Shown here: one piece after another, positions 8,540 to 61,950 of the stretch
Numbering within the stretch: the first letter of the stretch is position 1
Layout: every line of letters begins with the position of its first letter
From: Octopus vulgaris
Lineage: Eukaryota
DNA length: 64,000 nucleotides
Direction of reading: 5' to 3'
Assembly (NCBI GenBank): GCA_951406725.2
Contig: OX597819.1
Coordinates: 87,916,001-87,980,000 of the forward strand
Notes under the pieces: generated by a model
What the model was told of the DNA's origin: nothing
The model's input: the letters and a program-made list of their open reading frames with translations, nothing else
Database searches by the model: none
Program-made: the position numbers and the translations under genes

Positions 8540-11500
8540 TTACATACTGGAGGAGAGAGTATTCTCTACCAAAGTAAGTAAAAAAAACCATCAGATACAG
8601 AATTAAAATTAGTGATGAGTATTTGCAGCAGTGTAATGGACCCACATTCTGGCAGATTAACGCCAGTCTATATTCTCTGGCTACTACTGCAAAGCAGTAC
8701 ATGAATGACATTCAAAAAGTGAAAAAGACCGAAAGAACAAAGAAAATACCATCATGGGTTTTTAAGACAGAGAAATAGATAACTGATTTACAGAAGATCA
8801 TCAGTCATGTGATGATGCTTATTGCATGCAAAACAAGCAAATCACTATACGTGCCACCAACAGAAAGTAAAGAAGGAGGTAGAAATAATGTTTGGAGACA
8901 GCAGAAAGAGGACACTCACTTGCAGACTGACTACCCTTAAGCAGGTGCTTGAGGGTAATCAGTGTTGTCGGTGAGAAACTCCAGCATCAGAAGAAAATAA
9001 CTGAGAGAAAAACAATGAACAAAAAAATTTAACTAGAGCAGGCAGTAGTATACAGAGACATTATACAGGTATAGGAGTGGCTGTGTGGTAAGTAGCTTGC
9101 TTACCAACCACATGGTTCCAGGTTCAGTCCCACTGCATGGCCTCAGGCCAACCAAAGCCTTGTGAGTGGATTTGGTAGACAGAAACTGAAAGAAGCCTGT
9201 CGTATATATGTATATATATGTATGTGTGTGTGTATATGTTTGCATGTCTGTGTTTGTCCCCTTAACATTGCTTGACAACCGATGCTGGTGTGTTTACGTC
9301 CCCGTAACTTAGTGGTTCGGCAAAAGAGACCCATAGAATAAGTACTAGGCTTACAAAGTATAAGTCCTGGGGTCGATTTGCTCGACTAAAGGTGGTGCTT
9401 CAGCATGGCCACATCAAATGACTAAATCAAGTAAAAGAGTAAAAGAGTAAAGAGAGACATGAGAAGAGGAGCAGTGAACATCACAGAAGCTCCTTCACAA
9501 GAAGACATAAAAACCTTCTGGAGGAAAATCTGGAGTGAAGAGTAGTTTAACTAAGATGCTTTGTAGCTGGAAGAAATTCGGAGAAGTAATTGTCTCTGCA
9601 TTACACTCAAGACATACAGCATTGATGGTGATACTCTTACAACTGTGATCCAGAAACTCCAGGATAGAATAACACTTGGAAGAGACTTGATGTTTGGATT
9701 TTAGTACAAGAAGCTGACCATATCTTATCAATTTGTACCAGCAAGCTTTCAATGAGAACAGTAGCATACCACATTGGTTAGCTCTGGCAGAGACAAAATT
9801 GATCCCAAAATGCAGAACCACTCACATGGCAAAAAGCTACAGGCCAATTGCATACCAGAACTTAACGTGTAAAATATATACAGCATGCTTAAACCTCTTC
9901 CTTCAGGACCATTGTGAAGCCAATAACATCAGCACAACAGAACAAGCACCTGAGAAGAAGAGAGTCTGGGGATGTGCTGAGCAATTGTTGATCAACAAAA
10001 CTGTTATGCCAGAGGTGCGAGAGAATAGGAGGAACCTAGTTTCAATGTGGCTAGATTACAAGAAAGCCTTCGACTCTGTTCCCCACTCAAGGATTCTAGA
10101 AGCCCTTCAACTTGTTAAAGTTCCAGTGAGAATAGTCAAAGCCATAGCTGACCTGACTTCACCATGGGCCAACATCTTGAAATAAAAAAAAGAGTGACTG
10201 TATTATCACTGATAGAACACAGTATCACAAAGTCATGTTCCAAGGAGACAGCCTCTCTGTGATGTTGTTTATACTTTCTGTAAACCCCTTGTCATTCATG
10301 TTAAGGAAGTCTGAAGGATATCTCACTGGTTCACAAGGAAACAGAAATACTAAAATTACATACTGTTTCTTTTAAACTTTATGCAAAGAATATGCCTGAA
10401 ATAAAAAAGAGCTTGGCCTAATTACAACATTCTCAAAGGATGAAGGGTTGGAGTTTGGTCAGGAAAAATGTTATTTGGTTGTGAAAAGTGGGGAAACTGT
10501 AAACCAAACTAGCTGCATCTCCATCAATGACTTGACTGTTTTCCCTATATCTGATGAGGAATGTTACAGGTATCTAGAGGTGGATGAAAACATATCTTAC
10601 AATGGCACTTGTAACAAAATATGTGTCACTAAAGAATATTATAACCGAATAAAGGAAATTTGGACCTAGGAACTCTCTGCATTCAATAAAACAGTGGCCC
10701 ACAATGTGTTTTCGGTGCCAGTACTCATACCAACATTTGAGCTGCTTGATTGGACACTTGATGAGATCCAAGCGATTGATGTGAAAACCCGAAAAATACC
10801 AACAAGAACATATAATTTCCACATAAACAGTGACGTAGACTGCCTCTACCCAAAATGAAAACAAGGTGGCAGAGGCTTAACATCAATCCAAAATGCTTTC
10901 AAATGTCATATCAAATCCCTTTGACAACATCTTTTAACCACCAAGCGTCGAAGTGCATCCCTTGATCAAGTTTGCATACATGAGGCTGATAACATAAGAC
11001 TTGGAAGGCAGCTCCTTGAACAACATACCTTGTCTGATAACCTTATATACCTGCCCAAAGAAGTCACACGACTCTACCATAACGTATCATCAGATGAAAG
11101 GATGAGCATATATAAGAAGACTATGTATGGATATGTTAGTAGACAGCTCCGAGATGATAGTAACATTGATCATCAAAGCAGTCTATCATAGACCAATAGC
11201 CGGATTACTACCTCTCACTTTGAAGGGTAAGCATTTGCAATCCAGGAACAGAAAATATCAATAAAATACCTGATGTACAAAAGGAATGGAGATGCAGGAA
11301 AACCAGTAAAATGTGGCAATTGATGCAGACTTTGTGGAGTTAACACTGAAGATATCACCAGTGAGACATGATGTTGTAGCTAGGACATTATATAATGAAA
11401 TCTGTTGGAAGAATAACCCTGTAGACAAAGAAATAAGAACCCACAATATAGTAGAAGCCATAGTCACTCAAAACAAAAAAGAGTACTGGTGGAATACCCC

Positions 11501-11950
11501 AGTGAAACCTTCAATAAAATGTAAGCACAATAGACCTGATATAATGATTTGGGATAGAGAAGAAAATCTGTGTACAGTTGTGGAAATTAACTGCCCATTA
11601 GATGTTAACATAAAGCTGAAGATCAGAGAAAAAGACAACACCTATGCTGAACTATTGAGAAATCTGCTGTTACTCTATCCAGATTACAAGTTCAGGTTTA
11701 TACCTGTAGTTATTGGGACTCTGGGGTATGTAACACACTGTCTAAATGCCAATCTTGAGAAATTAGGTTTCTCAAAACTAGAAAGAAGAAAGCTGATTCA
11801 AAGACTATAGATCCAATCCATCACTGGAACTATGAAAGTCTGTCACACTCTCCAGAAGTTTATCATTTAAAATGTATATGAGCATGTCTAGACAAGCAAC
11901 TATATGCATGAGAATACATACATAAAACAAAACATACAAATCTGCACACA
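8540..11950 (+). mobile_element. Degenerate non-LTR retrotransposon with RT and restriction-like endonuclease (R4/Dong-like)
   Basis: RT motifs YRPIA, WLDYKKAFDSVPH, FQGDSLS and YRYL; zinc-knuckle remnant CRLCG at ~11325; RHD and RPDIMIWD...VVEINCP endonuclease motifs (ORFs 9733-10185, 11313-11810). Many stops and frameshifts. Confidence 0.88.
9065..9452 (+). mobile_element. SINE family A inserted in an R4/Dong-like LINE
   Basis: Matches family A. Possible target-site duplication AGAGACAT on both sides. Confidence 0.88.
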
Positions 11951-12002
11951 TACATACATACGTACATACATACATACATACATACAGGCATACATAAATA
12001 AA

Positions 12003-12406
12003 TACTCTTTTACTTGTTTCAGTCCTTTGACTGCGGCCATGCTGGAGCACCGCCTTTAGTCGAGCAAATCGACCCCAGGACTTATTCTTTGTAAGCCCAG
12101 TACTTATTCTATCGGTATCTTTTGCCGAACTGCTAAGTGACGGCGACGTAAACACACCAGCATCGGTTGTCAAGCAATGCTAGGGGGACACACACACACA
12201 CACACATGTACACACATATATATATATATATACATATATACGACTGGCTTCTTTCAGTTTCCGTCAACCAGATCCACTCACAAGGCATTGGTCGGCCCGA
12301 GGCTATAGTAGAAGACACTTACCCAAGATGCCACGCAGTGGGACTGAACCCGGAACCATGTGCCTGGTAAGCAAGCTACTTACCACACAGCCACTCCTGC
12401 GCCTAT
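12003..12406 (-). mobile_element. SINE family A
   Basis: Full-length match to the other copies, embedded in (TACA)n. Confidence 0.88.
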
Positions 12407-12439
12407 GTACGTACAAACATACATACATACATACATACA

Positions 12440-13400
12440 TATCTACTGCTATTGAGAGACTTATAAAGACCCTCATAACAATTCTTACACTTAGAACTAA
12501 GAACAGAACAATCATCTCCAATATTATAAATATTTCGGAAGGAATATTTAAAGTAGATAGTTTTGGTAGTCTTTCAGTAATTCTTCTCATTTTGGCATTA
12601 AACCCATTATCATTCTTGCTACAAAAATCAAATGGCTCCATGCTAGGGTCTGCAACTGCCAGAAGTGTTAATGTAATTAATAATTTCTTTGTGGATGATC
12701 TCAAGATTTATGCTAAAAATGTTAACAATGCCAAAAAACATCTGGAATTATTAACAACATTTTCAGCTGACATAGAAATGAAATTTGCCCTATACAAAGG
12801 TGATTGTTGAATGGGGAAAAATCAGCACCCCCAAATCCAAAACGGGTACATCAAAGGCCTCACTATCTCTCCTATGCCACACAAAGAATGCTACAAGCAC
12901 CTAGGCATTGAGGAAATACACATCATGCGAAGGTACTGTAAATGAAGATAGAGTGACACAAGAATATTATGTCAAACTTGGAAAAATATAGCAGTCGGAA
13001 CTCCCCTCTTACAACAAGACAATGTCCCACAATACGTTTGCAATACCAGTACTGATTCCAACATTTGGGATACTTGACTGGTCTATGGAAGAAATCCACT
13101 CCACAGGCGATAAAACATGCAAGATACTAATATCAGCTGGAAATTCACATTTATGCCAATAATAATTGGTGCATTAGGTTTTGTGAGTAAATGCCTAACT
13201 GACATTCTGGATAAACTAGGGCTTCCAGAAAAAGAAACCAACCAGTTAATTCGCACATGACAAATAAAATTTGTATGTGGAACAGTAAAAGTATGCATGA
13301 CTTTCCTTAAGTTTAAAATCTGACATTGATTTTAAAACTATTATTTTTTTTTTTGTCATGGCATACAGCAGTGACTCTAACAGGAAAATCTAAAAATACA
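12440..13400 (+). mobile_element. Second, internally deleted R4/Dong-like LINE fragment
   Basis: ORF 12328-12810 contains GIFKVDSFGSLSVILLILALNPLSF and FFVDDLKIYAK. Downstream sequence parallels 10560-10800 and 11690-11870. Confidence 0.8.
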
Positions 13401-16329: not shown

Positions 16330-16912
16330 CTTCCATTATACATAAATGATGAGGGAAGATGGATGGAACAAACGATAGCCCCATTCGGATTGATGAAGCA
16401 AGATTTGCTGGTCGACGGAAATACAATCGAGAAAGAATTCTGAATGCCGACAATGCTCCTTTCTTCGAAGACAGTAATGCAGAACAACGAAACAACAGAA
16501 ACCCTGGTAGTAAAATTGGTGGGTCGTGGGTTTTTGTTTTCAAACAAGGCTCAGACTGTCGATACGGCGTGACGGGAACAGTTTGATCCCAATTATTGAG
16601 AGAGAATGTGGAAAAGGTTCAGTAGTTCATTCAGATGAGTGGCCCGCTTATAATAATTTAAATGCCAAAGGTTATCACCCTCTGACAGTGAACCATCAAC
16701 GACATTATGTGGATCCAGTGACCGGAGCACACGCTCAGGCCATTGAGCGATCATGGTTAGATGCTAAAACTATGATTCTGAGAAAAATGAGAGGCGTTGG
16801 TACTGAACTTTTCCAGTCACATCTTGATCATTTCTACTGGAAGACGACGAGGAAAAATTCAGATGATTTATTTCTATTGTTCCTTAATGACATAATAAGT
16901 GTTTACCGTTAA
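16330..16912 (+). mobile_element. Merlin / IS1595 (ISXO2-like) DDE transposase fragment
   Basis: IDEARFAGRRKYNR..GGSWVF, then a frameshift, then VHSDEWPAYNNL..GYHPLTVNHQRHYVDPVTGAHAQAIERSW. Confidence 0.85.
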
Positions 16913-27742: not shown

Positions 27743-29030
27743 ATCATCATCATCATCATCATCATCATTTAGCGTCCGCTTTCCATGCTAGCATGGGTTG
27801 GACGGGTCAACTGGGGTCTGTGAAGCTGGAAGGCTTCGTCAGGCCCAGTCAAATCTGGCAGTGTTTCTACGGCTGGATGCCCTTCCTAACGCCAACCACT
27901 CCGCGAGTGTAGTGGGTGTTTTTTACGTGCCACCTGCACAGGTGCCAGACAGAGCTGGCGAACGGCCACGAACGGATGGTGCTTTTACGTGTCACCGGCA
28001 CGGGGCCAGGCGATGCTGGCAACGGACACGAACGGATGGTGCTTTTACATGCCACCGACACGGGGCCAGACAGAGCTGGCAAACGGCCATGAACGGACGG
28101 TGCTTTTACGTGTCACCGGCACGGGGGCCAGCCGAGGCTGACAACGAACACGAACGGATGGTGCTTTTACGTGCCCAGACAGAGCTGGCAAACGGCCACG
28201 AACGGACGGTGCTTTTACGTGTCACCGGCACGGGGGCCAGCCGAGGCTGGCAACGGACACAAACGGATGGTGCTTTTACGTGCCACCGACACGGAGGCCA
28301 GGCAGAGCTGGCAAACGGCCACGAGTGAATGGTGCTTTTACGTATCACCGGCACGGGTGCCAGACGAGGCTGACAGCGGACACGAACGGATGGGTCACTT
28401 AACCCCTGCTTTCTGATATATGATTTGATTTTGATTGTTCTCACTGGTCTTGCCGGGTCTTCTCACACACAGCATACTTCCATAGGTCTCGGTCTCTGGT
28501 CATTTCCTTGGTGAGACCTAGAGTTCGAAGGTCGTGCTTCATCACCTCGACCCAGGTTTTCCTGGGTCTACCTCTTCCACAGGTCCCCTCAACTGCCAGG
28601 GTGTGGCACTTTTTCACACACCTATCTTCATCCATTCTCACCACATGACCATACCAGCGCAGTCGTCTCTCTTACACACATCTGATGCCTCTTAGGTCCA
28701 ACTTTTCTCTCAAGGTACTTACACTCTGTCGACTATGAACACTGACATTACACATCCAACGGAGCATACTAGCTTCATTTCTCGCGAGCTTACGCATGTC
28801 CTCAGTAGTCACGGCCCATGTTTCACTGCCATGTAGCATGGCTGTTCGTACACATGCATCATACAGTCTGCCTTTTACTCTGAGCGAGAGGCCTTTAGTC
28901 ACCAACAGAGGTAAGAGCTCCCTAAACTTTGCCCAGGCTATTCTTACTCTAGCCGTTACACTTTCAGCACACCCACCCCCACTACTGACTTGGTCACCAA
29001 GATAACGGAAGCTATCAACTACTTCTAGAG
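27743..29030 (-). mobile_element. 5'-truncated RTE-clade LINE (ORF C-terminus, minisatellite-bearing 3' UTR, (GAT)n tail)
   Basis: Reads FRYLGDQ..ARVRIAWAKF..RLYDACVRTAMLHGSETW..MLRWMC..RRLRWYGHVVRM..RGRPRKTW. The tail appears as (CAT)n on the plus strand at 27743-27768. Confidence 0.9.
27920..28395. repeat. ~60-bp GC-rich minisatellite (~8 copies) in the RTE 3' UTR
   Basis: GTGCTTTTACGTGTCACCGGCACGGGG...GCTGGCAA(A)CGG(C/A)CACGAACGGATG recurs at ~60-bp spacing, e.g. 27979 and 28039. Confidence 0.85.
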
Positions 29031-32000
29031 AAATAAACATAGAATGTATGATCCCTTAATCATGCTGTGTGTGTACATACAACTCAACTGATTTAACCTG
29101 AAAACTTTTAAAACAGAATTTTTAAACTTCCCTTTAGCTACTTATCAGCATTCGGACAGTTTAACATACTCTGCATTTGAATTGTTTATCCATTGGTTTT
29201 GCATGAATTTAACTTCCCAAAATCAAACTATGGTGATAAGGTCTACAAAAAATCCAAAATATTTATTGTATTTTAATGGTGCCTAGCAACTGAAATGGTT
29301 TTTATAGTCACCTCTCAATCTTTTACATTTACTTTGCAAATTGCATCGCAACAAAACAACAAGTGTATTATCTTATCATAATCATTGTGGGCAGAGAACA
29401 TCTGACTACATGTACAGGCTATCTAGCTTGTAATTTAATGACTTTATCTGTTCTTAACCACTGAGACAGAGATGGAAAAACCAAAAGCTAATTAACTTGT
29501 ATTTTCAAGTCTGTACATATTACATGCCATACTCTTAATCCAATACTGTGTAAGGTTTCTTTTGTTTAGCTGTCGATATTATCCTTGTGTAATCAAACTA
29601 TTCAGATATCTTGGCTACAGAAAACTTCTTCATACACTTATTTGATACAGTCCAGTTTTACCATATCTGTTCAATTAAAAGTTAAACTAGAATGTCTTAT
29701 CTAAATAATCTTTTGTTTGTCATAATAACAAGGTTTTCTCTTCAATAGAAATTTGTACTTCAGAATAAAACAGCATAGGCACTTGTTATATTTAACTCTA
29801 GATTAGTTTCTTCCTTTCAACATTGAGCTTTACGTTTTTTTTAACAATATTTTTTAAAGAATGTGAAAGTAATTAATTTATCAGCCATATTACCTGCATG
29901 CTTGGTAAAATGAATATCTTTAATGTTACTTTTATAAAACCAATAAGATCAATTTTTTTAGCCTTTAGCATGCTACAGCCATCATATTATTAGTTATCAC
30001 TCTAAGATGCTGATGAGTCTTCATGTAGCCAATATTTGTTGCAATTAAATCTAAGTATTCATTGCAACATTAGATTACATTTGAAAACAATATGGCATCA
30101 ATGCCTAAGCCATTCATTGGCTAAAAAAAAGAACATGTTCAAACAATACAACTGAAAAACATTAGTCCCTTGTATCCCAGGTTCAGATCCTATCAGTTCC
30201 AGCATGGCAAAGGTCTTCAAACAGACCTATGTCTTTATTCAGCAACAATGTCTGGGCTACTTTCCAAGTAATATTGTGAACCAGAGCTCTTAATGACTTG
30301 GCTCTTCCAGTTGTCAGTCCCTATAAAATATTGGCCATCTGAAGGGGTATATTTGTAGAGTAATAATAGAAACAATATTACAGTTTTCTATAGGATTGAG
30401 CTGGTTAAGTGTGCTTGGGATATTTAACAAGGAGAACACTTCTAATATAAACGGGTAAGAAATTCTTCATAGGACAATTCTCATAGGACAAAATCTCATA
30501 AAAATGCACTCTTTTTATTCTAACACAGTTCACTTTAAAAATTTCTTGAAAATTTAGAAGTTGATGGAAATTTAGAAGTTGATGAAAATTTAGAAGTTGA
30601 TGGAAATTTAAAATAGTATACCATAATGAAAAAAACTCAACTTTCTGGATATGTGATTGTTGAAAGTACAATGATAATTGGCATCACTGATTTAGTGATT
30701 GGGAAAAAGAGTCAATGTCTGAATCAGCTAAAGAGGTTTACATTCATATACTTTCATATTTCATTGAACATGCCCTGACCAAATATTTAGAATCACAGCT
30801 GATAAGAGAAAATAATTCATTGAACCTAATGGGAAATGAACACATTACTCGGTAGTTAATAGTGCCAAGATTGAATCATTTCACAATAGATTAAATGGAA
30901 AGATAATAAAGTATATCAACATTAATGCCCAAGTCAATATGATAGTAAAGGGAAAACCCTAAAAGTACAAGACATTAACTAAATCCCTCTAAGGCACAAT
31001 TAAATATTTCTAGTTTGCTTCCAATTTATGCTCAATCAATATAATCATACTAGGTATGCATTCAAAATGTTTGAACATGGTTACACTATATTTCACATTT
31101 TCTGCATAATATACTTAACATAACATATTGTTCCTAAATAGAAGAGATAACTCTCTTCAATTGAAGAAATACTGTTCAAATATTCAGGTCCCCCTACAGC
31201 AATAGTCAATATTCATGTCTCTCTATGGCATAGAAATTTATGTGAACTTTATTAAATGATTCTTGCCAATGTAGCTCACAGCTAGTTTCCTCTGACTGGT
31301 TTTTATTTCCTGCATTAAAATGCTTATCATTATTTTGATATCCAAAGTGCTACTACATACCCTTACATTTCACTATTGGCTCTAATTCATTGACATTTTT
31401 TTCAACACCAATTCATTCTTCATATACATAGTATTACTTTTGGACTGTATATCTCACTTGGTCTCTTTGGTAGAGTTGTTACAGTCATCAGGATGAGGAG
31501 TAAATGAACAGTGCTTTATAGTAAATAAGCAAATTCAACAAACATACTAAAATTAATCTCCACAACAGCTGTTTCAATCCTCAGTTAAAACTGCTTTACT
31601 TTCTTAGCAATGTACTTAAGGAAAAAAATAGGCCCTAAACATACAGGCATATATTAAGAAGTCTGCATGTAACCATGTAGTTTTGAATCTCATCTTACTG
31701 TATGGCACCTGTTGTAAATGTCTTCTACTGTAAGTCCAGGTTGGCTAATATATTGGAAGTATAATTTGGAAAACAGAATCTGTGTGTGTATGTGTTGACA
31801 TCTTTCCATATCAAAAGTATTTCATTCTGGTATTTATTTTATCAAACAGCTAAATACTGGAGGTAAAGCTGATTGACTAAAACCATTGAGAGTAGTTCCT
31901 TGACCCAGTCACAATCCAGAAGAAAGAAAGCATCAAAATTTCACCAATTTCTATAAAATTTTAAAGTTCCAAACAGTGGGAGCCAGTCCCAGTGTATCAT

Positions 32001-35000: not shown

Positions 35001-35725
35001 CTGGCTTTTAAATAGTCAAGTTGGAGGCAAATTGTCAAATTCTAAACCTAGCAGAGGATTCAACTTGTATAACATTCCTAACCAGTCATTAATATTTAGG
35101 CTCTCATTAATTATTAAACTTAGTGTGGTATTAAGAGATAGCAGAGCAAATAGGCTCAGGTTTACTCGTGTTACTAAATATTTATGAAAATACAAGAGCT
35201 GATGTTACAATAATTTACGAGTAAAATATACACACACAAATAGATAAATTCGTATTCTTGCATTTTACTCCAGCAAGCTTTCAGCAACAAAATACATTAA
35301 GTTGATAGAATTGACGAGCAAATGGCTAGTAAAAATTTAAGTACTTTGTATGTGAAATAAAACCAGTATAGACTATAAATTTATCTTGCTCTATGATTAC
35401 TGTAGATTCTTGTTGTTAACACTAAACTAAACTATTTAAAATTTTAGTCAGTTTTCTCCCTGAAGAAATTCATGCAATATTATATGTATGTATCTTTGTA
35501 CCTCCTCATCTTGACATGTGATAGTTTGTTAACAAGTGTCACTATCAAGTAAGTGGCGTCATTCATTTTCAGTCTTCCATGGAAACATGTCCAGTCATTG
35601 GGAAATATTACCTTGTTTGAAAACAAGAGTTAGCAACAGGAAGGGCATCTGATTGTAAAAAACTTTACCTCAACAAATCCCATCTGACCCATGCAAGCAT
35701 GTTAAACTGGACATTAAATCAATGA

Positions 35726-35729
35726 TATT

Positions 35730-35762
<33 letters not shown>

Positions 35763-36233
35763 CATACATATATACATACATATATAATATATATATATAC
35801 ATACATACATATATACATACATATATATATATATATATACATACATACATATATACATACATATATATATATATATACATACATACATATACATACATAT
35901 ATATATATATATACATACATACATATACATACATATATATATATATATACATACATACATATACATACATATACATATACATACATACATATACATACAT
36001 ACATACATACACATACATATACATACATACATACATATACATACATATATATACATACATATACATACATACATATATATATACATACATACATATATAT
36101 ATACATACATACATACATATACATACATACATATACATACATACATATATATACATACATACATATACACATACATACATATATACACATACATACATAT
36201 ATACACATACATACATATATACACATACATACA

Positions 36234-36269
<36 letters not shown>

Positions 36270-36317
36270 TACATACATATACATATATACATATATATAT
36301 ATACATACATATATACA

Positions 36318-36351
<34 letters not shown>

Positions 36352-36481
36352 CATACATATATACATACATACATATATATATACATACATACATATATAC
36401 ATACATACATACATATATACATACATACATACATACATACATACATACATACATACATACATACATACATACATACATACA

Positions 36482-36517
<36 letters not shown>

Positions 36518-36791
36518 TATACATACATATATATATATACATATATATATACATACATATATATATACATACATACATACATATATATATACATACATAT
36601 ATATATACATACATACATATATACATACATACATATATACATACATACATATATACATACATACATATATACATACATACATATATATATATATACATAC
36701 ATATATATATACATACATATATATATACATACATATATATATACATACATATATATATACATACATACATATATATATATATACACATACA

Positions 36792-36823
<32 letters not shown>

Positions 36824-36885
36824 CATACATATATATATACATATATATATATGTTGTATGTGTGGAGGTATGTATGTATGTATGT
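35726..36885. repeat. ~1.15-kb compound (TACA)n/(TA)n microsatellite
   Basis: Read directly from the sequence. It produces the spurious Y/M/V/C/I ORFs in all three minus frames. Confidence 0.97.
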
Positions 36886-37486
36886 TCAAATGCTAAAGTT
36901 TGTCACTGAAGGAGTGTAGAGTGTATAGTATATTTAAACTGAATTCTTTTAATTGCAACTTTATTTTCACACCAGCACAATCTTATGATGAACAGTTTTA
37001 CAATATTTTTAAGTTGGTTTTATATTTATTGATAAACATTCATTATTTTGAATTTCTAAGTCCTAGCCAGCTTCTAAATATTCTTTTTTTAAGGTTGTGT
37101 TTATGAGTGTAGTTGCTTTTCCTTTTGCTCCAATTTGCTGGTTACAGTAATGAAATTGGCAGGTAGGGAATAAGACAACCACCGAATTGGACAATGAAAA
37201 CTGACAATATGACAATGATTAAAAAGTAAAAGTTCATATAGACCAATAAAATGGTGAATTTGACCAATGGCAATGGAACAACCAATGAATTGGCAAACGA
37301 AAAGTGACAACAATTATAAACACCACTTGGACAAAATAATATTTAGAAAGTGACCAAAAAATGAACCAACTTCAATGGATATAAAATCAGCTAGGAATAT
37401 TGTAAAAGTTAATTCACATTAAGATCATAGTAGTGTGAAATATGAATTGTGTAAAGAATTCACTATATATAAGCACACACACGCAC

Positions 37487-41232: not shown

Positions 41233-41273
41233 ATATGCTATCAAGAGTGTTTCATATAAAAATCAGTCTATCA

Positions 41274-43243
41274 CTATACAACATATTCTATTAAATAATC
41301 GGGGTAAGCTTGGGCACTATCAAATATAACAAAAATCTTTGGGTCCCATATGTTGTCTACACAAGAGTCATAGCATTTTCCAAATGGTTCGGCACATGGA
41401 TATAAAGGTGGGGCTTTCTTCAGGCTGCTGTTACCACCTGTGTACTTGCCCACGAGAACTTTGGCAATGAACATTTTCCGCGTGCAGTTTGTAGGTATTG
41501 AGGTCCGTGTCGTATGGGGTTCTCCATTTTGGCAGTAGAGTTGGAGTGTGTTTGCTGTCTGTTGAGCCTGGATTGCTTGTGGGGTAGGGGGCTGAGGCTG
41601 GGTCTGTGGGACCAGCTGTTGTTGTTGGGATGGTGCTGGTGGTGCTGGTGGTACTTTCACTATTAGTTTGGATTGTGAATGGCCAACAGTGCTGACTTTA
41701 GGACCAGAAGTTCCTGGTGGAATGGGCACAACAAAACCTTTCCGCAGGAATATTTGTTGGGGTTGCTGCTGTGGTTGCACTGGGGCTTGGTGATGGTGGT
41801 GGTGATGGTGGTGATGGTGATAGTGATGTAAATGATGTGGTGTTTGTTGTGCAGCTTGTATATGCTGGGGTGGGGCTTGGGGTTGGTTCTGTGGAGGTAC
41901 ACCAGCTTGCTGGGCCATTACTTGTTGCTGAGGCTGCTGTTGCTGAGATTGTTGTTGAGATGGCACTCTTCCAAAAACAAGTTTCGGCTGGGTGTGAGAC
42001 ACCATGTTAACTTTAGCTGCCGAAGCTCCTGTTTGAAAAGGGGACAAAAATTCTCCAAGTGTTATCAGCTGAGGTGCTGAAGTTGATGTGACCTGTTGCA
42101 GTGTTGGCCCAACTTGCTGTGGTTGCTGATGATGTTGCGGTTGGGCTAACTGTGGAACTTGTGCAGCAGTCTGTAATTGCGGTGATGGTTGTAGTTGTTG
42201 CACAGCCTGCAATTGCAATAATGGCTGTTGAGCTTGTGAGAGTTGCTGTGACTGCAGCGCCTGCGATGGTATCGCTGGTTGCTGGAGTCGTTGTGTTGCT
42301 TGTGCCTGCAGTCGTTGTGTGGGTTGTGTTTGAAGTCGTTGTGTGATGCGCTGCAGAAGGTATTTTTGCTGCTGCTGCTGCTGTTGTTGTTGTTGCTGTT
42401 GTTGCATTTGCTGTTGTGGTTGTGACAATCCTCCAAAGATTAATTTAGAGTGTGAGTGTGAAGCCAAATGGCTTTTGGGATTAACAGCAGTTCCTGCCTG
42501 GAAGGGTACAACCAGAGGGATATGTTGAGGTGTGCTAGTCACTGGCACTGTCTGCAGTTGTTGGTGTACTAGCTGTTTAGGGGCTGTTGACAGCACAAGC
42601 GGAGACTGCATAACTGTATTGTTAGCAGTTACAGTAGGGCCAACATTACCACTGGAAGGAAAGGATACAGTCAAATTTTGTAATGAATATGAAGATGATG
42701 ATGAGGGTGTTGAAGATGAAGAAGATGATGGGACATTAGGAGCAATGCCAACTGATGAAGTGTCTTGCATATTAGGCATATTCTGAACAGTTTGGTTCTT
42801 GTCTGCATCTGTCATTGGCATCATGACAATGTTTATGCGATTAGACGGTACTCTGTTTACAGCAGTGTTTGGATTGTTAGTAGCTTTGATAGTCGGACAA
42901 CATATATTTGATCCAGCTCCAGGAGGTGCAGCTCCTAATAAAGCTTGACTAACAAATGGGTTGTTACTAGAACTGGCCATTATGCTTCCTTGAGCAGTAT
43001 AGGTGGTCACTGAACTTGTATAGCCTGTTAATTGCAGTGGTGCAGCTGGGTTCATACTTGGAATATTAATACTTGGACTCAACTTGAGGAAAGCATTTTT
43101 ATTGTAAGGATTGCAGAAGACTTTAGTGGTCATTGCAATGTTGTTAGAACTGACACGACCAGCTGGAATTGGACGCTGCCGCTTAATACGAATGTCATCA
43201 GTAAATTGATGAGAGTATGAAGCCTCGCCCGCAAAGTAGGAGC
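41274..43243 (-). CDS. PARP-family mono-ART gene, terminal coding exon (C-terminal part of the catalytic domain, interrupted by a 574-aa low-complexity segment)
   Basis: Acceptor tttcattgtAG at 43245-43244, phase 1. Reads (G)SYFAGEASYSHQFT, then an open 574-codon insert, then KMFIAKVLVGKYTGGNSSLKKAPP...YDSCVDNIWDPKIFVIFDSAQAYPDYLIEYVV*. These motifs match the TIPARP/PARP11/PARP12 catalytic C-terminus. Includes ORF 41274..43133. Confidence 0.93.
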
Positions 43244-43433
43244 CTACAATGAAAAAGAAAAAAAATGAAAAGAGGATACAATTAAAAGTGAAAAATAGAA
43301 ATGTAGTAAATCTAAGTGAATTTTACATTATCTCAATACACTTTATTGCTTTTTGCAATATTTTCCCTAAGATTATAGTGGCACAGAAGTATAAGCTGTC
43401 TATGTATGTGCAAATCATATTGTTTTGTCGTTT

Positions 43434-43539
43434 TTATATTCTATCTAGGGGTTTGTAATGCTTTGAGTAGAGTCAGTAAGATAATGTTATATTCTATCTA
43501 GGGGTTTGTAATGCTTTGAGTAGAGTCAGTAAGATAATG
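43434..43539. repeat. 53-bp tandem duplication in the last PARP intron
   Basis: CTATCTAGGGGTTTGTAATGCTTTGAGTAGAGTCAGTAAGATAATG occurs at 43441 and 43494. Confidence 0.9.
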
Positions 43540-44534
43540 CCAATTTAAATTATGGCCTAAGTTTACTTAAGTAAATTGTAGTAGTGATTGATAAGGTATG
43601 GTAAAAATAATTATTACATTATTAAATAGTATGATAGTTACATTATTTCACTTGATATAGGAACCTGAACACACTCTTTTTGTAAGCTAATTATAATTTT
43701 TACAGCAGTTCAGTTGGCTAAAGCAACACTACAAATTCTTTAGTACATGTAGTGTACATAACTTGATAAGTCTGATCTCTTGGGACATTTGCATAACATA
43801 GATATGATCATTACATCTGCTATACTAATTAAGTAATAAGGTTTAACAAAATCTAATATGTTGATTTAAAACCTGGAGGCAGTTAAAAATTTAGTCAGGG
43901 ATATACTATAGTACATTTTCATTCAATCAAACAATGCTGATATTAGGGTAGTTCTCTTCTTCGTGGAGTTATCTTGTACTATCTAATATTTATAATGCGT
44001 CTGTTAGGAATTGGTGTTTGCATTTATAATAAACTCTTTTTGGACACTCTTCCTGAACTATAATATAAATTCTTTCACTTACACTCTGAGGCATATTTTG
44101 TATAGTGTTGAAATATTTAAATGGACTTGTAGCTATTAGGATTTGATATAACATGATCCACTTTTTAAAAGCAATATGTATTTGGTATTATTCTCTTTTG
44201 AGGTCACCCACTTCATAATTATTATGTAACACAGTATAGTTTGTTAAGTGGTTGGTAGCTAAAACAATCCCAACAAATATACTGGGTGAGGAGAGTGTAT
44301 GGGATCTGGCATGGACTAAAGCTAAAATCTATCAAAATGTAAAAGAGCTTCCCACTGAGAAACTAATGGCCAGCTGAAGTGGGAGAGGAGACAAGCACCA
44401 TAAGATTATTGGTTTCTTAGAACAGCATGATGACAGCAGAATTAGGTTGTGCACCTATGATCTCCCAAGGTTATTGATTTTGGTTGATTAAATGAAAATG
44501 TTTTTGCATTTTGAAAATACTCTTTTAATATGCT

Positions 44535-44570
<36 letters not shown>

Positions 44571-46756
44571 TGTGTGTGTGTGAGTGTACATATATATATA
44601 TATATATGAAATTTTGAATTTAGTTCACAGAACCCCCAGTGCTACCTTTGTGGACCCCAGTTTGGGAACCACTGTTTTATAGTAAGGAATATTATCTCAG
44701 TTGTTACTTAACCATTAGTCATCTCTGATTAAGCAAATTTATGATTACATGCATTCTAGAACTTGCCATCTAGTTATATTTCTAAATTTATAACTGCTTG
44801 ACCCAACATGTCTTTTCTTTGTTCAGATAAGGTATTATTTGAAGGTGATTTGGGTGTTATATCTAGCAACTGAAACGACTGTGTAGAGCAAGAGTGGGGA
44901 AGTATATAAATAATTGGAGTGAAATGAAATACATAAGAACCTATAGGGATGCATCTATGTTGAGAACAATAATGCAGGTTAATTTTTAAAAATTCATAGA
45001 TAACGTAAATTAAATAACATTAGGCCTTAAGGCTTCAATCACTGTTTTCATAGTGAATTTTGAAGACTTTGTGGGCAGTTTCAAATAATAATAGAGATGG
45101 TCCACCTGTGGGAGGGGGGTTTTACTTCTTTTGGCACTAAAAGCTTTCTAATTCGGTGAGTCCAATATGGAAGATAGATACCCAGCATTTTGAAGATATT
45201 TCAATAATTTTGAAATCTACCATAAAAGGAATTTTTCAATTCATGGTTTATGAATGTAGAATTGTGGAAAATTAGATTAAGCACTGTTGCTATTAATGTG
45301 GGGTGATGAAAAATGACCAGAATTGAAAATACTGTATTTTCATTATTATAAAAGAGCTGTCACTGGAGAATGTTAAAGTATACAAGGGAGACAAATCTCA
45401 GAGTTTTCAATTTAAAGTAACATGTTTTAATGTCTGTTAAGGTGAGAGAATGATCTCATAAGAGGGATAGTTATATTTTGAGGAAGCCACAGCAGAGCAG
45501 GTAGTATTGTAGTGCCAGCAACACAATCTCTAGCACCAGAATGTTTTAATGACCAATTATTATATATTATAAAATGCATTTTCATAGTAAGTTTCTGAAG
45601 AGATAAACACCAACAATAAACATTTTATGGTATTCTATCTTCCAGTTCAAATCCTACACAAATCAAATTAGCTTTTCATTCTATTTAGGGGTGTGATAAA
45701 AATGACACGAAGGATATAAGTAAATTCTAAAAGGATACAGTTTTCTTGGCAACTATATGTGCATCTTTTGCAAGTGTTTTCTAACATAGACTTTGGGGGA
45801 CCAATAATCGTCGTCATTTAATGTTTGTTCTCTATGCTGGGTTGGATGATTTAACTAGAGCTGGCAAGCTGGAGGACTGTGCCAAGCTCTGTTGTCTGTT
45901 TTGGCATGGTTTCTAAAGTTGGATACCCTTCTAATCAATGCCTTGTAAATAAAATTTGGTTGAAAGAAACAGTGTAACAACCCACTGTACATGTGTGTGC
46001 ATCTATGATTGTCATCATCATTGTTTAACATCTGTTTTTCATGCTGCCATAGGTTGCACGGTTTGACTGGGAACTGGCAAGCCAGGAGGCTGCACCAGGC
46101 TCAAACCTCATCAGGTAATTGTATCCCAATTTTTAGAATAGATACTATTCTACAACTGAATACCCGTCTCAATGCTAATCACCTTACTGAATATGCACAA
46201 CATTCCAGCATGTTGTAAGGGGTGACTAATAGAGTTGTAATCCTCAAAAAGTCCTACCAGCATGGAAGGGTAGACATAAAATCAATGATGATGATGATCA
46301 TTATCATCATTGTCAATCAATGCCTACTCTCCATAATGGCATGGGTTGGATGGATCAACAAGTTGGAGGATTACATCATACTGCTATGTCTGCTTTGGCA
46401 TGGTTTCTACATGGTTTCTACCTTTCCCAATACTAACCACTTTTCAGAATATGCTTAGTAATTTCTCATGACATTGTGTGTGTGTGTGTCTTTTGTAGAA
46501 ATTTTTAGATGAGAAAATCAATGGACCAATATTTTTAAACAAAAATATTTCATTTTTTTTTTCAATCAAATTGTACTGGACAAACACGATGCCTTCAATT
46601 GAGTAGATTAAATAAAAGGGTTTAAACAATGTTCAAACCATTCTTTGGGTATAAAAAATTAATTTTTCTGAATCCTTTTTGACATATTTCATGTCTCCTA
46701 CTTTTTATGTTATTTAGATAAAAGTTATAATGCAGCACACAATAAAAGCTACTTAC

Positions 46757-46908
46757 CATGTCCATAAACAGTACCATGTTTTCCACAGAGCCTCCAGTCA
46801 AATCCCTTACGACATATAGGTTCAACCACTTTGCTTTTTGTACCATGGAATAGTTGTCTTTCTTCAACATTAAGACCATCGTTCTCTTGTACCATCTCAC
46901 GTTTTTTT
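46757..46908 (-). CDS. PARP gene exon carrying the catalytic His (LFHGT) and D-loop
   Basis: 152 nt, bounded by tttacAG and GTAAGT. Encodes KKREMVQENDGLNVEERQLFHGTKSKVVEPICRKGFDWRLCGKHGTVYGH(G). Phases 2 and 1 match both neighbouring exons. Confidence 0.95.
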
Positions 46909-48140: not shown

Positions 48141-48286
48141 AAGCAGTAATATTTCCATAAAATAGGATTTTGGATTCGAGAGATTCGTACTATTTCAGTG
48201 GCTGGATAATGCATTGAAGACAAAAACATTCTAGACACATTGACATATTCTTGAGAATCAGAATCCAGAACGAATAGCTGATTACT
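48141..48286 (-). CDS. PARP gene exon, N-terminal part of the catalytic domain
   Basis: 146 nt, bounded by ttttttcAG and GTAAGT. Encodes SNQLFVLDSDSQEYVNVSRMFLSSMHYPATEIVRISRIQNPILWKYYC(L), with the SxEY and RIQNxxLW motifs of PARP7-15. This reading frame is not in the ORF track. Confidence 0.93.
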
Positions 48287-49315: not shown

Positions 49316-49548
49316 AAATTTTGATTCCATTTCAACCCAGTTTTCGGGTAAGCTATCATAACTGATTGCTAACCGCTTTCGAGGACGTTCAAGTTCTCCT
49401 ACAGTCATTTCATTATCAGGCCCCACAGAGGTATCACTTGGAGAATAGGATTTCATTAGCATATTTGTTATGAAATCAACATAATATTGTTCAAGAACTT
49501 CTTCAAGAATATCCACTATCATTGCAGGCAAACAACGCCTCAGTTCAT
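49316..49548 (-). CDS. PARP gene exon: helical linker plus the LPENW motif preceding the ART domain
   Basis: 233 nt, bounded by tattttccAG and GTAAGT. Encodes (H)ELRRCLPAMIVDILEEVLEQYYVDFITNML...SYDSLPENWVEMESKF and joins the next exon in phase 0. Confidence 0.88.
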
Positions 49549-50955: not shown

Positions 50956-51004
50956 GTTTTGAATAGAAATTGTTACAGCCTGCTTCTAGGCACTTTACAG
51001 ATGT
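50956..51004 (-). CDS. Short PARP gene exon, C-terminal part of a RING-like Cys motif
   Basis: 49 nt, with a strong T-tract cAG acceptor and GTATGT donor. Encodes TSVKCLEAGCNNFYSK(H). Its phase-1 end joins exon 49316-49548 in frame. Confidence 0.75.
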
Positions 51005-60189: not shown

Positions 60190-61950
60190 TAGCCATCACT
60201 CATTGTCTTAACCAAATCCAGTGGCTAGCCTTTTCCACTGTAGTTTGGATATTGCCCATGGTGGTATTTGCTTTACGATGAGATAGGTCTAATGATAATA
60301 ACAGTTGCCTCACACTGTGTCCAACAAATCCTCTACATTCGACTTCGATTGGAAAATGCTCCACTTTCCAGCCTGTCTTCACATACCTCAAGGAGGTTTA
60401 TATAATGGTCAATCTTTCAATCCTGAGCAGCATCCATGTTATCTTCATGAGGAGCAGTTAACTCAACTAGATTTACCACTTTCTTTCTTTTACACCACAT
60501 TATAATATCCATTTTTTTCGCAACTGGGATGGGAAAGAATCCTTGGCACCCTGGTCAATTTGCAGCCACCTCCCAATAGCCGTTCCACTTTTCATTGCTC
60601 AAAGGAAGTTTCTTCTTGAAATGGATCTGCCGTCCTGGGTGCATGAAAGTAATGAAATCTCTGCTTGGTACTTTCAATGGTTTTTTTTTTTTCACTGTTG
60701 ATGAGAGCAATTTGGTTCTTTATAGCATTGAAGATAATCTTAAGGACCAGATTGTGTTTCCATGTATATCTGTTCAATGCCAGTGAACAGTTGGAAAGAA
60801 TATGTTTCAGTGTTCTGACTTTGCCGCATTTGTATATATCATTTTCTGAGATGTTCCATCTTACTAGATTTGTAGGCAATGACAAGACATCATGAGATGA
60901 ATGAATCAGAAAACTTAGCCATGATATTGTCCACCTCCAGATCTCATTCAAACTTATTTTTCTCTCAACATGTTCTTCCTATTTCATCATCTGTCCTTGT
61001 TAAGCATATTGGATCAAATGAAGCACTCCTCTCTCTGTTCCCCTTGTTTTGACACTGTTGCTAACAACAGATCTGCGTTCACTCTGCATCATACTTGCAA
61101 ACTGTCTGAACTGATCTGCATCAAATCCAAGTCCCTTCCAATGAATTTGCATTGCACCCACCATATCTTGGTGTGTAAGTGAAGACAGAATGACATCAGT
61201 CTTTGCTTTCCACTCCCTGGCTGTTTTTACATCTAGTGGATTATGCCTGATTTCTATATCCTTTGATTCTCTTAGTATCATCACCGTCCATACCTTGCCT
61301 AGTTTATAAATTTTGACTACTGATGCCAGTGGTAACTGCAATGAGCCTGTTTTATGATAGAGAGCTGAACTGTTCAATATACGAGGCAGGCCTAACTGCC
61401 TTCTAATGAACAAATTAAACTTTTGTTCAATAACTTGAACTCGTGATAATGCCACCTCATTTATTAAAAGTGGACACGAAAGAGCAGATACAAGCCAAAC
61501 TGTAAGCATCGTATTTTATATTTATCTGGTAGCTTTGAGTTATCGATTGCTGTTAATCCTTCCTTGGCTTGTTTTACAATTTGCATCTTATGACTCTTAT
61601 CTGACAATGTTCAAGTGTATACACGTCCCATGCTCTTGACGGGTTCTTCCTTGATTGTTGGAATGTTTTCTTCAGCTATTTTAAACTTAACTTCTTTTTG
61701 AACTCCCTTAATAAATCTTAGACTATGTAACTTTTTGCTCTCAATCGCATCCTTGACCACTTCACAAACTCATCTAGCCTCAAGAGGGCACTCTGCAGGA
61801 TTTGCTTCTCTGTCAATAGAAGTGTCACATCACCCATAAAGGCCTGTCCTCTACTTACAATCTTCAAGCCCCTCTCAGTTGCAAAGGTCCTACAGTACAG
61901 CTTGCATCCAAAGTTGTTTGCACTTCGTTCACTGTTCAAAAGAATAGCTG
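60190..61950 (-). mobile_element. Degenerate RLE-type non-LTR retrotransposon (Hero/R2-superfamily-like)
   Basis: RT remnant AFMGDVTLL; zinc knuckle and RHN-like motif CGKVRTLKHILSNC..RYTWKHN; C-terminal GWKVEHFPIEVECRGF. Multiple stops. Confidence 0.8.

What the first reader, a model, noticed from the sequence alone, without database searches (positions are those of the whole stretch)
41478..43199. PARP catalytic domain split by a 574-aa intrinsically disordered, glutamine-rich insert
Seen: between YFAGEASYSHQFT and KMFIAKVLVG there are 574 uninterrupted in-frame codons rich in Q, P, S, T and H (polyQ, polyS, polyH), all in one exon. Known: in TIPARP/PARP12 this loop is about 10 residues and in PARP11 a few tens. 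Catalytic residues on both sides are intact (HGT, GSYF, and KIFVIF giving the H-Y-I mono-ART triad). Inferred: an active mono-ART whose fold must close around a very large disordered loop, possibly a condensate-forming or transactivation-like module inside the enzyme. An alternative is an exitron that is sometimes spliced out. 1.7 kb without a stop in this AT-rich genome argues that it is translated.
Basis: partly seen in the sequence, partly recalled or inferred. Interest (0 to 1): 0.82.

Follow-up and report, generated by a model that had tools for sequence, protein, structure and literature searches.

The report
Giant disordered loop inside mollusc PARP
An octopus gene for an ADP-ribose-transferring enzyme carries a 574-residue glutamine-rich stretch in the middle of its catalytic domain; the stretch is kept in spliced transcripts and its mollusc and leech relatives have a long stretch at the same spot, so it is likely an ancient floppy docking arm of an apparently undescribed enzyme family predicted to link SUMO, ubiquitin and ADP-ribose signalling.

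Summary
Observation confirmed: 574 stop-free codons (43199-41478, minus strand) split the catalytic domain of a PARP with an intact H-Y-I triad; the same loop is 7 residues in human PARP12. Spliced RNA contigs from 4 of 4 runs read from the upstream exon into the insert, none skips it, and 5 of 5 listed substitutions are synonymous, so an exitron is not supported. The insert is not an octopus oddity. Ten named species (chiton, bivalves, gastropods, leech) carry 153-397 residues at the same site, and these proteins form one well-supported branch (100/96). Position and acid-poor Q/S/P/T composition are conserved; sequence is not. Octopus has the longest insert measured. An oyster orthologue is predicted to close a normal PARP fold around the disordered loop. 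Best reading (inferred, untested): a nuclear, SUMO-targeted mono-ADP-ribosyltransferase whose loop, leaving next to the acceptor site, captures partners or drives condensates, with RING1 coupling to ubiquitin. A tolerated neutral spacer is the main rival. Nothing describing this subfamily turned up in the literature searches. New variant of a known kind.

The parts
41478..43199 (-). 574-aa Q/P/S/T-rich, acid-poor insert in the ART loop that follows the nicotinamide-stacking aromatic residue; holds polyS, polyQ, polyH and three degenerate ~40-aa units (F..G....K....H(S/T)..KL.(F/V)), each followed by a Q-rich run
   Evidence: covered by RNA contigs except the polyQ repeat; low pLDDT with one helix on the polyQ
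43200..43243 (-). Start of the last exon: (G)SYFAGEASYSHQFT with the triad Tyr
   Evidence: splice joint to the upstream exon seen in 4 of 4 runs
41274..41477 (-). C-terminal half of the ART domain (KMFIAKVLVG...DSCVD...PKIFVIF...YPDYLIEY) and stop; third triad residue Ile
   Evidence: Pfam PARP E 2e-5; PARP12 E 7e-13
46757..46908 (-). Exon with LFHGT (triad His) and the donor loop
   Evidence: Pfam PARP E 2e-7; RNA joint; splice sites
48141..48286 (-). Exon encoding the N-terminal part of the ART domain (ISRIQNPILW)
   Evidence: tblastn with the oyster orthologue E 2e-8; AG/GT ends; junction not seen directly in RNA
49316..49548 (-). Exon encoding the conserved helix after RING1 (ELRRCLPAMIVDILEE) and a linker with a basic patch (RPRKR)
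   Evidence: tblastn E 1e-6; splice sites
50956..51004 (-). 49-nt exon carrying the last two cysteines of the RING1-like finger (CLEAGC). The next exon upstream lies beyond the window's end (L003:4709-3547; G000:C6:87994709-87993547; 1163 nt) and encodes SIM-like motifs (DSDEVVII, DVIFV), an acidic disordered region and the first six ligands of the finger
   Evidence: weak tblastn match to the oyster RING; keeps the frame in the gene model; outside exon; summed upstream exon length (1599 nt) matches the 1600 nt left over in two RNA contigs

Best explanation
The insert is a transcribed, in-frame loop inside the catalytic domain of a mollusc/annelid PARP subfamily, and it likely works as a disordered partner-capture or condensate arm of a nuclear, SUMO-targeted mono-ADP-ribosyltransferase. 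Shown: one open 574-codon loop in spliced RNA, an intact H-Y-I triad, and orthologues with 80-397 residues at the same site. Predicted: the ART fold closes normally around the loop, and the N-terminal zinc finger has an RBR RING1 fold. Inferred steps: (1) tandem SIM-like motifs dock on SUMOylated nuclear proteins; (2) the low-charge Q/S/P/T loop leaves the fold where tankyrase has its G-loop and zinc loop, next to the acceptor site, and concentrates the enzyme with disordered partners such as transcription regulators; its lack of Asp/Glu would spare it from self-modification; (3) the enzyme adds single ADP-ribose units; (4) RING1 and its following helix bind an E2 or ubiquitin, coupling the mark to ubiquitylation as PARP7 does through separate E3s. 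The octopus loop probably grew by polyQ slippage and triplication of a ~40-aa unit.
For: RNA: GT-AG joint 43242/46756 with contigs running on to 42427 in X1, X2 and X20 (to 42712 plus an overlapping contig in X17); a single contig 42357-41235 in X1 and X2; intron depth near zero; no joint skipping the insert. 5 of 5 listed substitutions are synonymous, P about 0.005 under random transitions. 14 of 15 RING-bearing relatives have inserts of 80-397 aa. 15 long-insert rows lie on one side of a branch, 100/96, in a 41-row tree built without the insert; 22-row branch with SH-aLRT 98 in the 78-row tree. Insert D/E is below that of the same protein's N-terminal disordered region in 15 of 15 (median 2.4% vs 9.6%). 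Oyster model: ART pLDDT about 90, insert <50; TM 0.92 and rmsd 2.2 A to PARP12; Z 27 with 190 of 192 residues aligned to PARP15. The only non-PARP sequence hit is RNF216 (E 6e-5); top RING fold hits are RBR RING1s (Z 6-6.8). Two or more SIM-like motifs in 16 of 18 proteins. Analogy: TiPARP condensates recruit HUWE1 (PMC7306777, passages); PARP7 MARylation plus DTX2 marks proteins for degradation (PMC12759070, abstract).
Against: No activity, localisation, SUMO or E2 binding, or condensate data exist. Insert sequence is not conserved: octopus versus 20 others gave z of at most 3.4, and only 5 of 190 other pairs reached z>6. Length varies from 15 to 574; 4 of 22 rows in the branch have only 15-33 aa (Lottia, a partial Lymnaea model, Dreissena, one unnamed), so a long loop may be dispensable. 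No IBR or RING2 follows RING1, and RBR RING1s do not induce the closed E2-Ub state (PMC9834252, passages), so ligase activity in cis is doubtful. The RING fold Z-scores are middling. The SIM pattern was written after seeing the sequences. The fold was predicted for the oyster protein, not the octopus one; the octopus last exon alone gave a poor model (mean pLDDT 44). No contig spans the polyQ repeat.
Confidence: 0.5

Rival explanations
1. Tolerated neutral spacer: the loop is a permissive surface site that took up low-complexity sequence once in the ancestor and has drifted in length since, with only the reading frame under selection.
For: No alignable sequence between classes; length 15-574; short-loop members exist; the same loop carries a lineage-specific zinc motif in tankyrase (PMC8941426, passages; position mapped).
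Against: Long inserts persist in 18 of 22 branch members across chiton, bivalves, gastropods, a cephalopod and a leech, while 55 of 99 anchored proteins keep loops of 10 aa or fewer; acid depletion in 15 of 15; 5 of 5 substitutions synonymous.
Confidence: 0.25
2. Autoregulatory gate: the loop, and the basic helix predicted at its start, occlude or tune the acceptor site until phosphorylation, cleavage or partner binding releases it.
For: The exit point lies just after the stacking aromatic, at the tankyrase G-loop position that shapes the acceptor site (PMC8941426); basic residues in the first 15 aa of all 15 inserts; helix 726-739 in the oyster model; many Ser/Thr.
Against: No conserved motif across classes; the model shows no confident loop-domain structure (pLDDT <50).
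Confidence: 0.13
3. Catalytically dead scaffold: the split ART only binds NAD or partners, and the protein acts as a SUMO/ubiquitin adaptor.
For: A 574-aa insert may slow folding; the octopus has Phe where 14 of 14 orthologues have Tyr at the stacking position.
Against: H, Y and I/V/L are retained across the branch, and Phe occurs at that position in TIPARP-like rows; 70% identity to the oyster protein in the C-terminal half; normal predicted fold.
Confidence: 0.07
4. Exitron: the segment is sometimes or usually spliced out, giving a normal short-loop PARP.
For: Length is a multiple of three; two annotated gene models (Lottia, Lymnaea) have 15-aa loops whose starts resemble those of long-insert relatives; contigs drop rare variants.
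Against: No skipping joint in 4 of 4 runs, and unbranched contigs cross both insert borders in X1 and X2; no strong donor in the exon and no polypyrimidine-AG near the insert's end; three full-length ORFs on short Logan contigs contain their inserts.
Confidence: 0.05

Closest known systems
Clade-3E mono-ARTs PARP12, PARP7/TIPARP, PARP11 (ARTD family)
   Same: Closest catalytic domain (PARP12 E 2.5e-71; TM 0.92); H-Y-I triad as described for clade 3E (PMC2964712, passages).
   Different: No WWE or CCCH domain in 17 of 17 near-full-length orthologues; loop mostly 80-574 aa instead of 7-8; SIM-like motifs and RING1 at the N-terminus.
RNF216/TRIAD3 and other RBR E3 ligases
   Same: RING1-like finger plus following helix (E 6e-5; RBR RING1 folds Z 6-6.8); RNF216 also has SIMs (PMC9834252 figure legend). 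The gene may be a chimera of an RNF216-like N-terminus and a PARP (inference).
   Different: No IBR and no RING2 catalytic cysteine; an ART domain follows about 60 residues after the helix.
SUMO-targeted ubiquitin ligases (RNF4, RNF111; recalled)
   Same: Tandem acidic SIM-like motifs, a disordered linker and a RING.
   Different: The RING is RBR-type and is followed by an ADP-ribosyltransferase; ligase activity is untested.
Tankyrase zinc-binding loop
   Same: A lineage-specific addition in the same ART loop region (PMC8941426; N-half alignment ends at about TNKS2 1071-1072).
   Different: 12 folded residues in a poly-ART versus hundreds of disordered residues in a mono-ART.
Split RWD (PARP6/8) and split KH (PARP9/10/14) domains
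   Same: PARP-family domains interrupted by long, often disordered insertions (PMC10450202, passages).
   Different: Those are accessory domains; here the catalytic domain itself is split.

Membership tests
ARTD mono-ADP-ribosyltransferase | H-Y-(I/L/V) triad | tested here: met
   LFHGT, GSYF, PKIFVIF
ARTD mono-ADP-ribosyltransferase | PARP catalytic fold | tested here: met
   Predicted for the oyster orthologue: TM 0.92 to PARP12, Z 27 to PARP15; Pfam PARP on both octopus halves
ARTD mono-ADP-ribosyltransferase | NAD-dependent MARylation activity | not testable with these tools
   needs an assay
PARP7/11/12/13 (clade 3E) | WWE domain(s), with or without CCCH fingers, before the ART | tested here: not met
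   Pfam finds no WWE or CCCH in 17 of 17 orthologues or in the octopus upstream exon, while it finds WWE in 3 of 3 controls
RBR E3 ligase | RING1 domain | tested here: met
   RNF216 RING1 E 6e-5; RBR RING1 folds top the non-ART list, Z 6-6.8, middling
RBR E3 ligase | IBR and RING2 with catalytic cysteine | tested here: not met
   No IBR hit; only about 60 low-confidence residues lie between the RING1 helix and the ART
SUMO-targeted ubiquitin ligase | Tandem SIMs | tested here: inconclusive
   Pattern match in 16 of 18, at most 5 of 300 shuffles as high; pattern written post hoc from a recalled consensus; binding untested
SUMO-targeted ubiquitin ligase | RING-dependent ubiquitin transfer | not testable with these tools
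   needs an assay; no complex prediction was obtained
Exitron | Internal GT-AG segment skipped in part of the transcripts | tested here: not met
   No skipping joint in 4 of 4 runs; contigs can miss rare isoforms

The most novel reading that the evidence does not exclude
A lophotrochozoan chimera of an RNF216-like SIM-RING1 module and a mono-ART is a single-chain SUMO-targeted ADP-ribosyltransferase that hands its product to ubiquitin, and a >500-million-year-old disordered loop grafted beside the acceptor site serves as its built-in substrate-selection and condensate module, tuned in length per lineage and longest in octopus.
Probability: 0.25. Interest if true: 0.88.

Novelty: new variant of a known kind. 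Interest (0 to 1): 0.7.

Why it matters
It points to a PARP subfamily with an architecture (SIM-like motifs, RBR-type RING1, split ART) that none of the papers seen describes. Annotation labels most of its members 'uncharacterized' or 'hypothetical', and the insert breaks the Pfam match in two. It suggests an ART domain can carry up to 574 disordered residues next to its acceptor site, with the position conserved across two phyla. A natural length series (15-574 aa) makes it directly testable whether a disordered loop inside an enzyme sets substrate choice or condensate entry. It would also be a one-chain model for SUMO, ADP-ribose and ubiquitin crosstalk, which in mammals needs separate proteins (PARP7 with DTX2 or HUWE1).

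Tried and rejected
(second protein), 15 and 16 used the His-exon in a wrong but open reading frame; their blanks mean nothing, and one of three protein searches was lost (correct frame). The gene model had the same one-base shift and was redone. No listed run is on record as RNA; RNA status rests on the spliced joint and the empty intron. Only the last splice junction could be examined on reads; upstream junctions rest on homology, splice consensus and contig length. X20 has almost no cover below 41836, which is no evidence either way; a depth-4 backwards joint in X20 (42200 to 41631) is not an exitron pattern. The first coding exon was not found in about 85 kb upstream (3 unconvincing candidates). 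No octopus RNF216 exon was found with the RING exon (one chance hit). The Atlas gave only a weak TASOR lead (0.84). No named cephalopod orthologue came back or 48 (23 proteins were looked up by name), so the octopus expansion could not be dated. Rows dropped before counts: of 157 proteins, 47 lacked the N anchor and 11 the C anchor; P0110's 197-aa 'insert' is a duplicated ART half. Long-loop rows outside the main branch: P0107, P0115, P0133, P0110; P0116 and P0146 (41 of 43 together, support 91). The 41-row tree was hand-picked and left these out. The sample is ranked by likeness to the octopus C-half, so it over-represents the subfamily, and absence outside molluscs/annelids is not shown. No RING1-E2 complex prediction was obtained; the only intronless E2 found is Rad6, a non-cognate stand-in. 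Literature searches aimed at the subfamily found no description; supplements were not seen, and those of PMC2964712 and PMC8102003 (which includes octopus and oyster sequences) could hold members.

Full report
Observation. The minus strand holds a 682-codon open frame at 41274-43322. Between SHQFT and KMFIAKVLVG are exactly 574 codons (43199-41478): Q 19%, P 12%, S 10%, T 8%, H 4%, with 7 acidic and 30 basic residues. The other five frames have 22-35 stops; 1000 dinucleotide shuffles gave at least 7 stops and never more than 266 open codons. In human PARP12 the same loop is 7 residues. Of the 17 other PARP loci found in this genome, the 15 that align across the loop have loops of about 10 residues.

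Gene. Six exons with AG/GT ends give 1236 codons and one terminal stop: one outside the window (L003:4709-3547), then 51004-50956, 49548-49316, 48286-48141, 46908-46757 and 43243-41274. The start exon was not found.

Is it in the mRNA? Twenty of 24 listed runs hold 89-100% of the exon's words, none on record as RNA. Four were laid on 41235-46900. All four show a joint that removes the 3513-nt GT-AG intron, with the intron otherwise nearly uncovered except at repeats, so these are spliced contigs. In X1, X2 and X20 that contig continues to 42427; X17 does so in two overlapping pieces. In X1 and X2 one contig runs from 42357 through the C-terminal half into the 3' UTR. The break is at the polyQ repeat, which the tool skips, so no single contig spans the exon. 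No joint skips the insert. Two contigs leave 1600 nt upstream of 46900, against 1599 nt for the modelled exons. The five listed substitutions in organisms B and C are all synonymous; 34% of possible transitions would be, giving P about 0.005. One further X20 difference was not listed, and the sample is small.

It is a subfamily trait. A search of 1.84 billion representatives and two word searches gave 157 proteins including the query. Ninety-nine could be anchored on both sides of the loop: 55 have 10 aa or fewer, 5 have 11-49, and 39 have 50 or more (one of these is an artefact). Named members (lengths): Pinctada 397, Bulinus 273 and 99, Helobdella 246, Liolophura 240, Potamilus 234, Bradybaena 233, Haliotis 207, Mizuhopecten 176, Patella 166, Nucella 153; short ones are Dreissena 31, Lottia 15 and a partial Lymnaea model 15. 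Three unnamed full-length ORFs on 3-5 kb Logan contigs, presumably transcripts, carry 114, 80 and 315. Trees built without the insert put octopus, all 15 RING-bearing relatives and the leech on one branch of 22 rows (SH-aLRT 98, 78 rows), 18 of them with 80 aa or more. A hand-picked 41-row careful tree gives 100/96; a 96-row FastTree keeps 41 of 43 long-loop rows together (support 91). A single origin before molluscs and annelids split, in or before the Cambrian (dating from general knowledge), is the simplest reading; a few long-branch rows may be independent expansions. Sequence is not conserved (octopus versus 20 others, z at most 3.4; 5 of 190 other pairs above 6), but composition is: 57-70% Q/S/P/T/N/G/A/H in the RING-bearing proteins, and fewer D/E than the same protein's N-terminal disordered region in 15 of 15. 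Octopus has the longest anchored insert. Three degenerate units in it score 98, 71 and 78 against shuffle maxima of 67, 62 and 66 (Q runs inflate this), suggesting internal triplication plus slippage.

The N-terminus has acidic SIM-like motifs (two or more in 16 of 18 proteins; consensus recalled, pattern post hoc) and a C-x2-C...C-x3-H-x2-C-x2-C...C-x4-C finger followed by a conserved helix. Its best sequence match among solved structures is RNF216 RING1 (E 0.001 single; 6e-5 profile and the only non-PARP hit). In the fold search the best rows over this part are RBR RING1 domains (Z 6-6.8). There is no IBR, RING2, WWE or CCCH hit. A PLDLS motif (CtBP-binding type, recalled) lies near the N-terminus in 6 of 18, not in octopus. 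The leech model is short and shows no RING, so the RING is not shown by name in annelids.

Structure. AlphaFold2 on the oyster orthologue gives pLDDT about 90 for both ART halves and the RING, and under 50 for the insert. The two halves superpose as one domain on PARP12 (TM 0.92, rmsd 2.2 A) and PARP15 (Z 27, 190 of 192 residues). The octopus last exon alone, lacking the N-half, gives low confidence throughout, with one helix on the polyQ. The profile's N-half ends at about TNKS2 residue 1071-1072 (offset good to 1-2 residues), just before the G-loop (Ile1075) and zinc motif (Cys1081) that border the acceptor site (PMC8941426, passages). So the insert leaves the fold beside the acceptor site (inference).

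Mechanism. I commit to a nuclear SUMO-targeted mono-ART whose loop captures partners or drives condensate entry, with RING1 linking to ubiquitin (0.5). Every functional step is inferred from anatomy and from analogy with TiPARP condensates that recruit HUWE1 (PMC7306777, passages) and PARP7-DTX2 degradation (PMC12759070, abstract). RBR RING1s bind E2 but do not activate it as canonical RINGs do (PMC9834252, passages), so the RING may be an adaptor. Rivals: neutral spacer 0.25, autoregulatory gate 0.13, dead scaffold 0.07, exitron 0.05.

Novelty. Searches found no account of this subfamily. Passages of two family surveys (PMC2964712; PMC4245714), a ZAP phylogeny (PMC8102003) and an Aplysia inventory (PMC9334734) do not mention it; supplements were not seen, and subscription journals are largely outside the library. 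Split accessory domains are known in PARP6/8/9/10/14 (PMC10450202, passages); a split catalytic domain was not among the passages seen. Verdict: real, transcribed, ancient, new variant of a known enzyme kind; interest 0.7.

Noticed in passing
G000:C1, loci L013-L029: At least 17 other PARP catalytic exons clustered on contig C1, with short (~10 aa) loops where they align: an expanded paralogue family.
   Followed up: partly
P0005-P0008 (Mytilus proteins): PARP12-like proteins carrying FMRP-type Tudor, KH0 and KH domains ahead of CCCH-WWE-PARP (Pfam run on P0005; precomputed domains): an apparent FMR1-like/PARP fusion in mussels.
   Followed up: no
P0085, P0107, P0115 (unnamed): Divergent PARPs with acid-rich (18-22% D/E) 55-107 aa inserts at the same loop and an altered following strand; long branch, possibly degenerate members.
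   Followed up: partly
P0012, P0158, P0013, P0017, P0020, P0026, residues 57-120: PLDLS motif (CtBP-binding type, recalled) near the N-terminus in 6 of 18 proteins; absent from the octopus model.
   Followed up: partly
inserts of P0017, P0018, P0022, P0039, P0054, P0061: A short shared motif (PKP.(A/S/T/Q)(I/V)(R/K)..SG, often after IL) near the end of the insert in one subgroup that branches with bivalves, the only shared insert motif seen.
   Followed up: no
window 9718-12810 (+), 16514-16912 (+), 28672-29055 (-), 60592-61515 (-): Transposon remnants: reverse transcriptase pieces (Pfam RVT_1 at 9718), an IS1595-like DDE transposase piece at 16514, and further LINE-like fragments (label from recall) without a Pfam hit.
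   Followed up: partly
window 35670-36919: About 1.2 kb AT-rich microsatellite that is open in several frames.
   Followed up: no
L033 (G000:C4:138320500-138321400) and G000:C3:117301610-117304102: An intronless Rad6/UBE2A-type E2 gene (label from recall) and an 11-unit ubiquitin-like tandem array in a 902-aa frame.
   Followed up: no
P0110 (unnamed): Protein with tandemly duplicated ART halves that mimics a long insert.
   Followed up: partly
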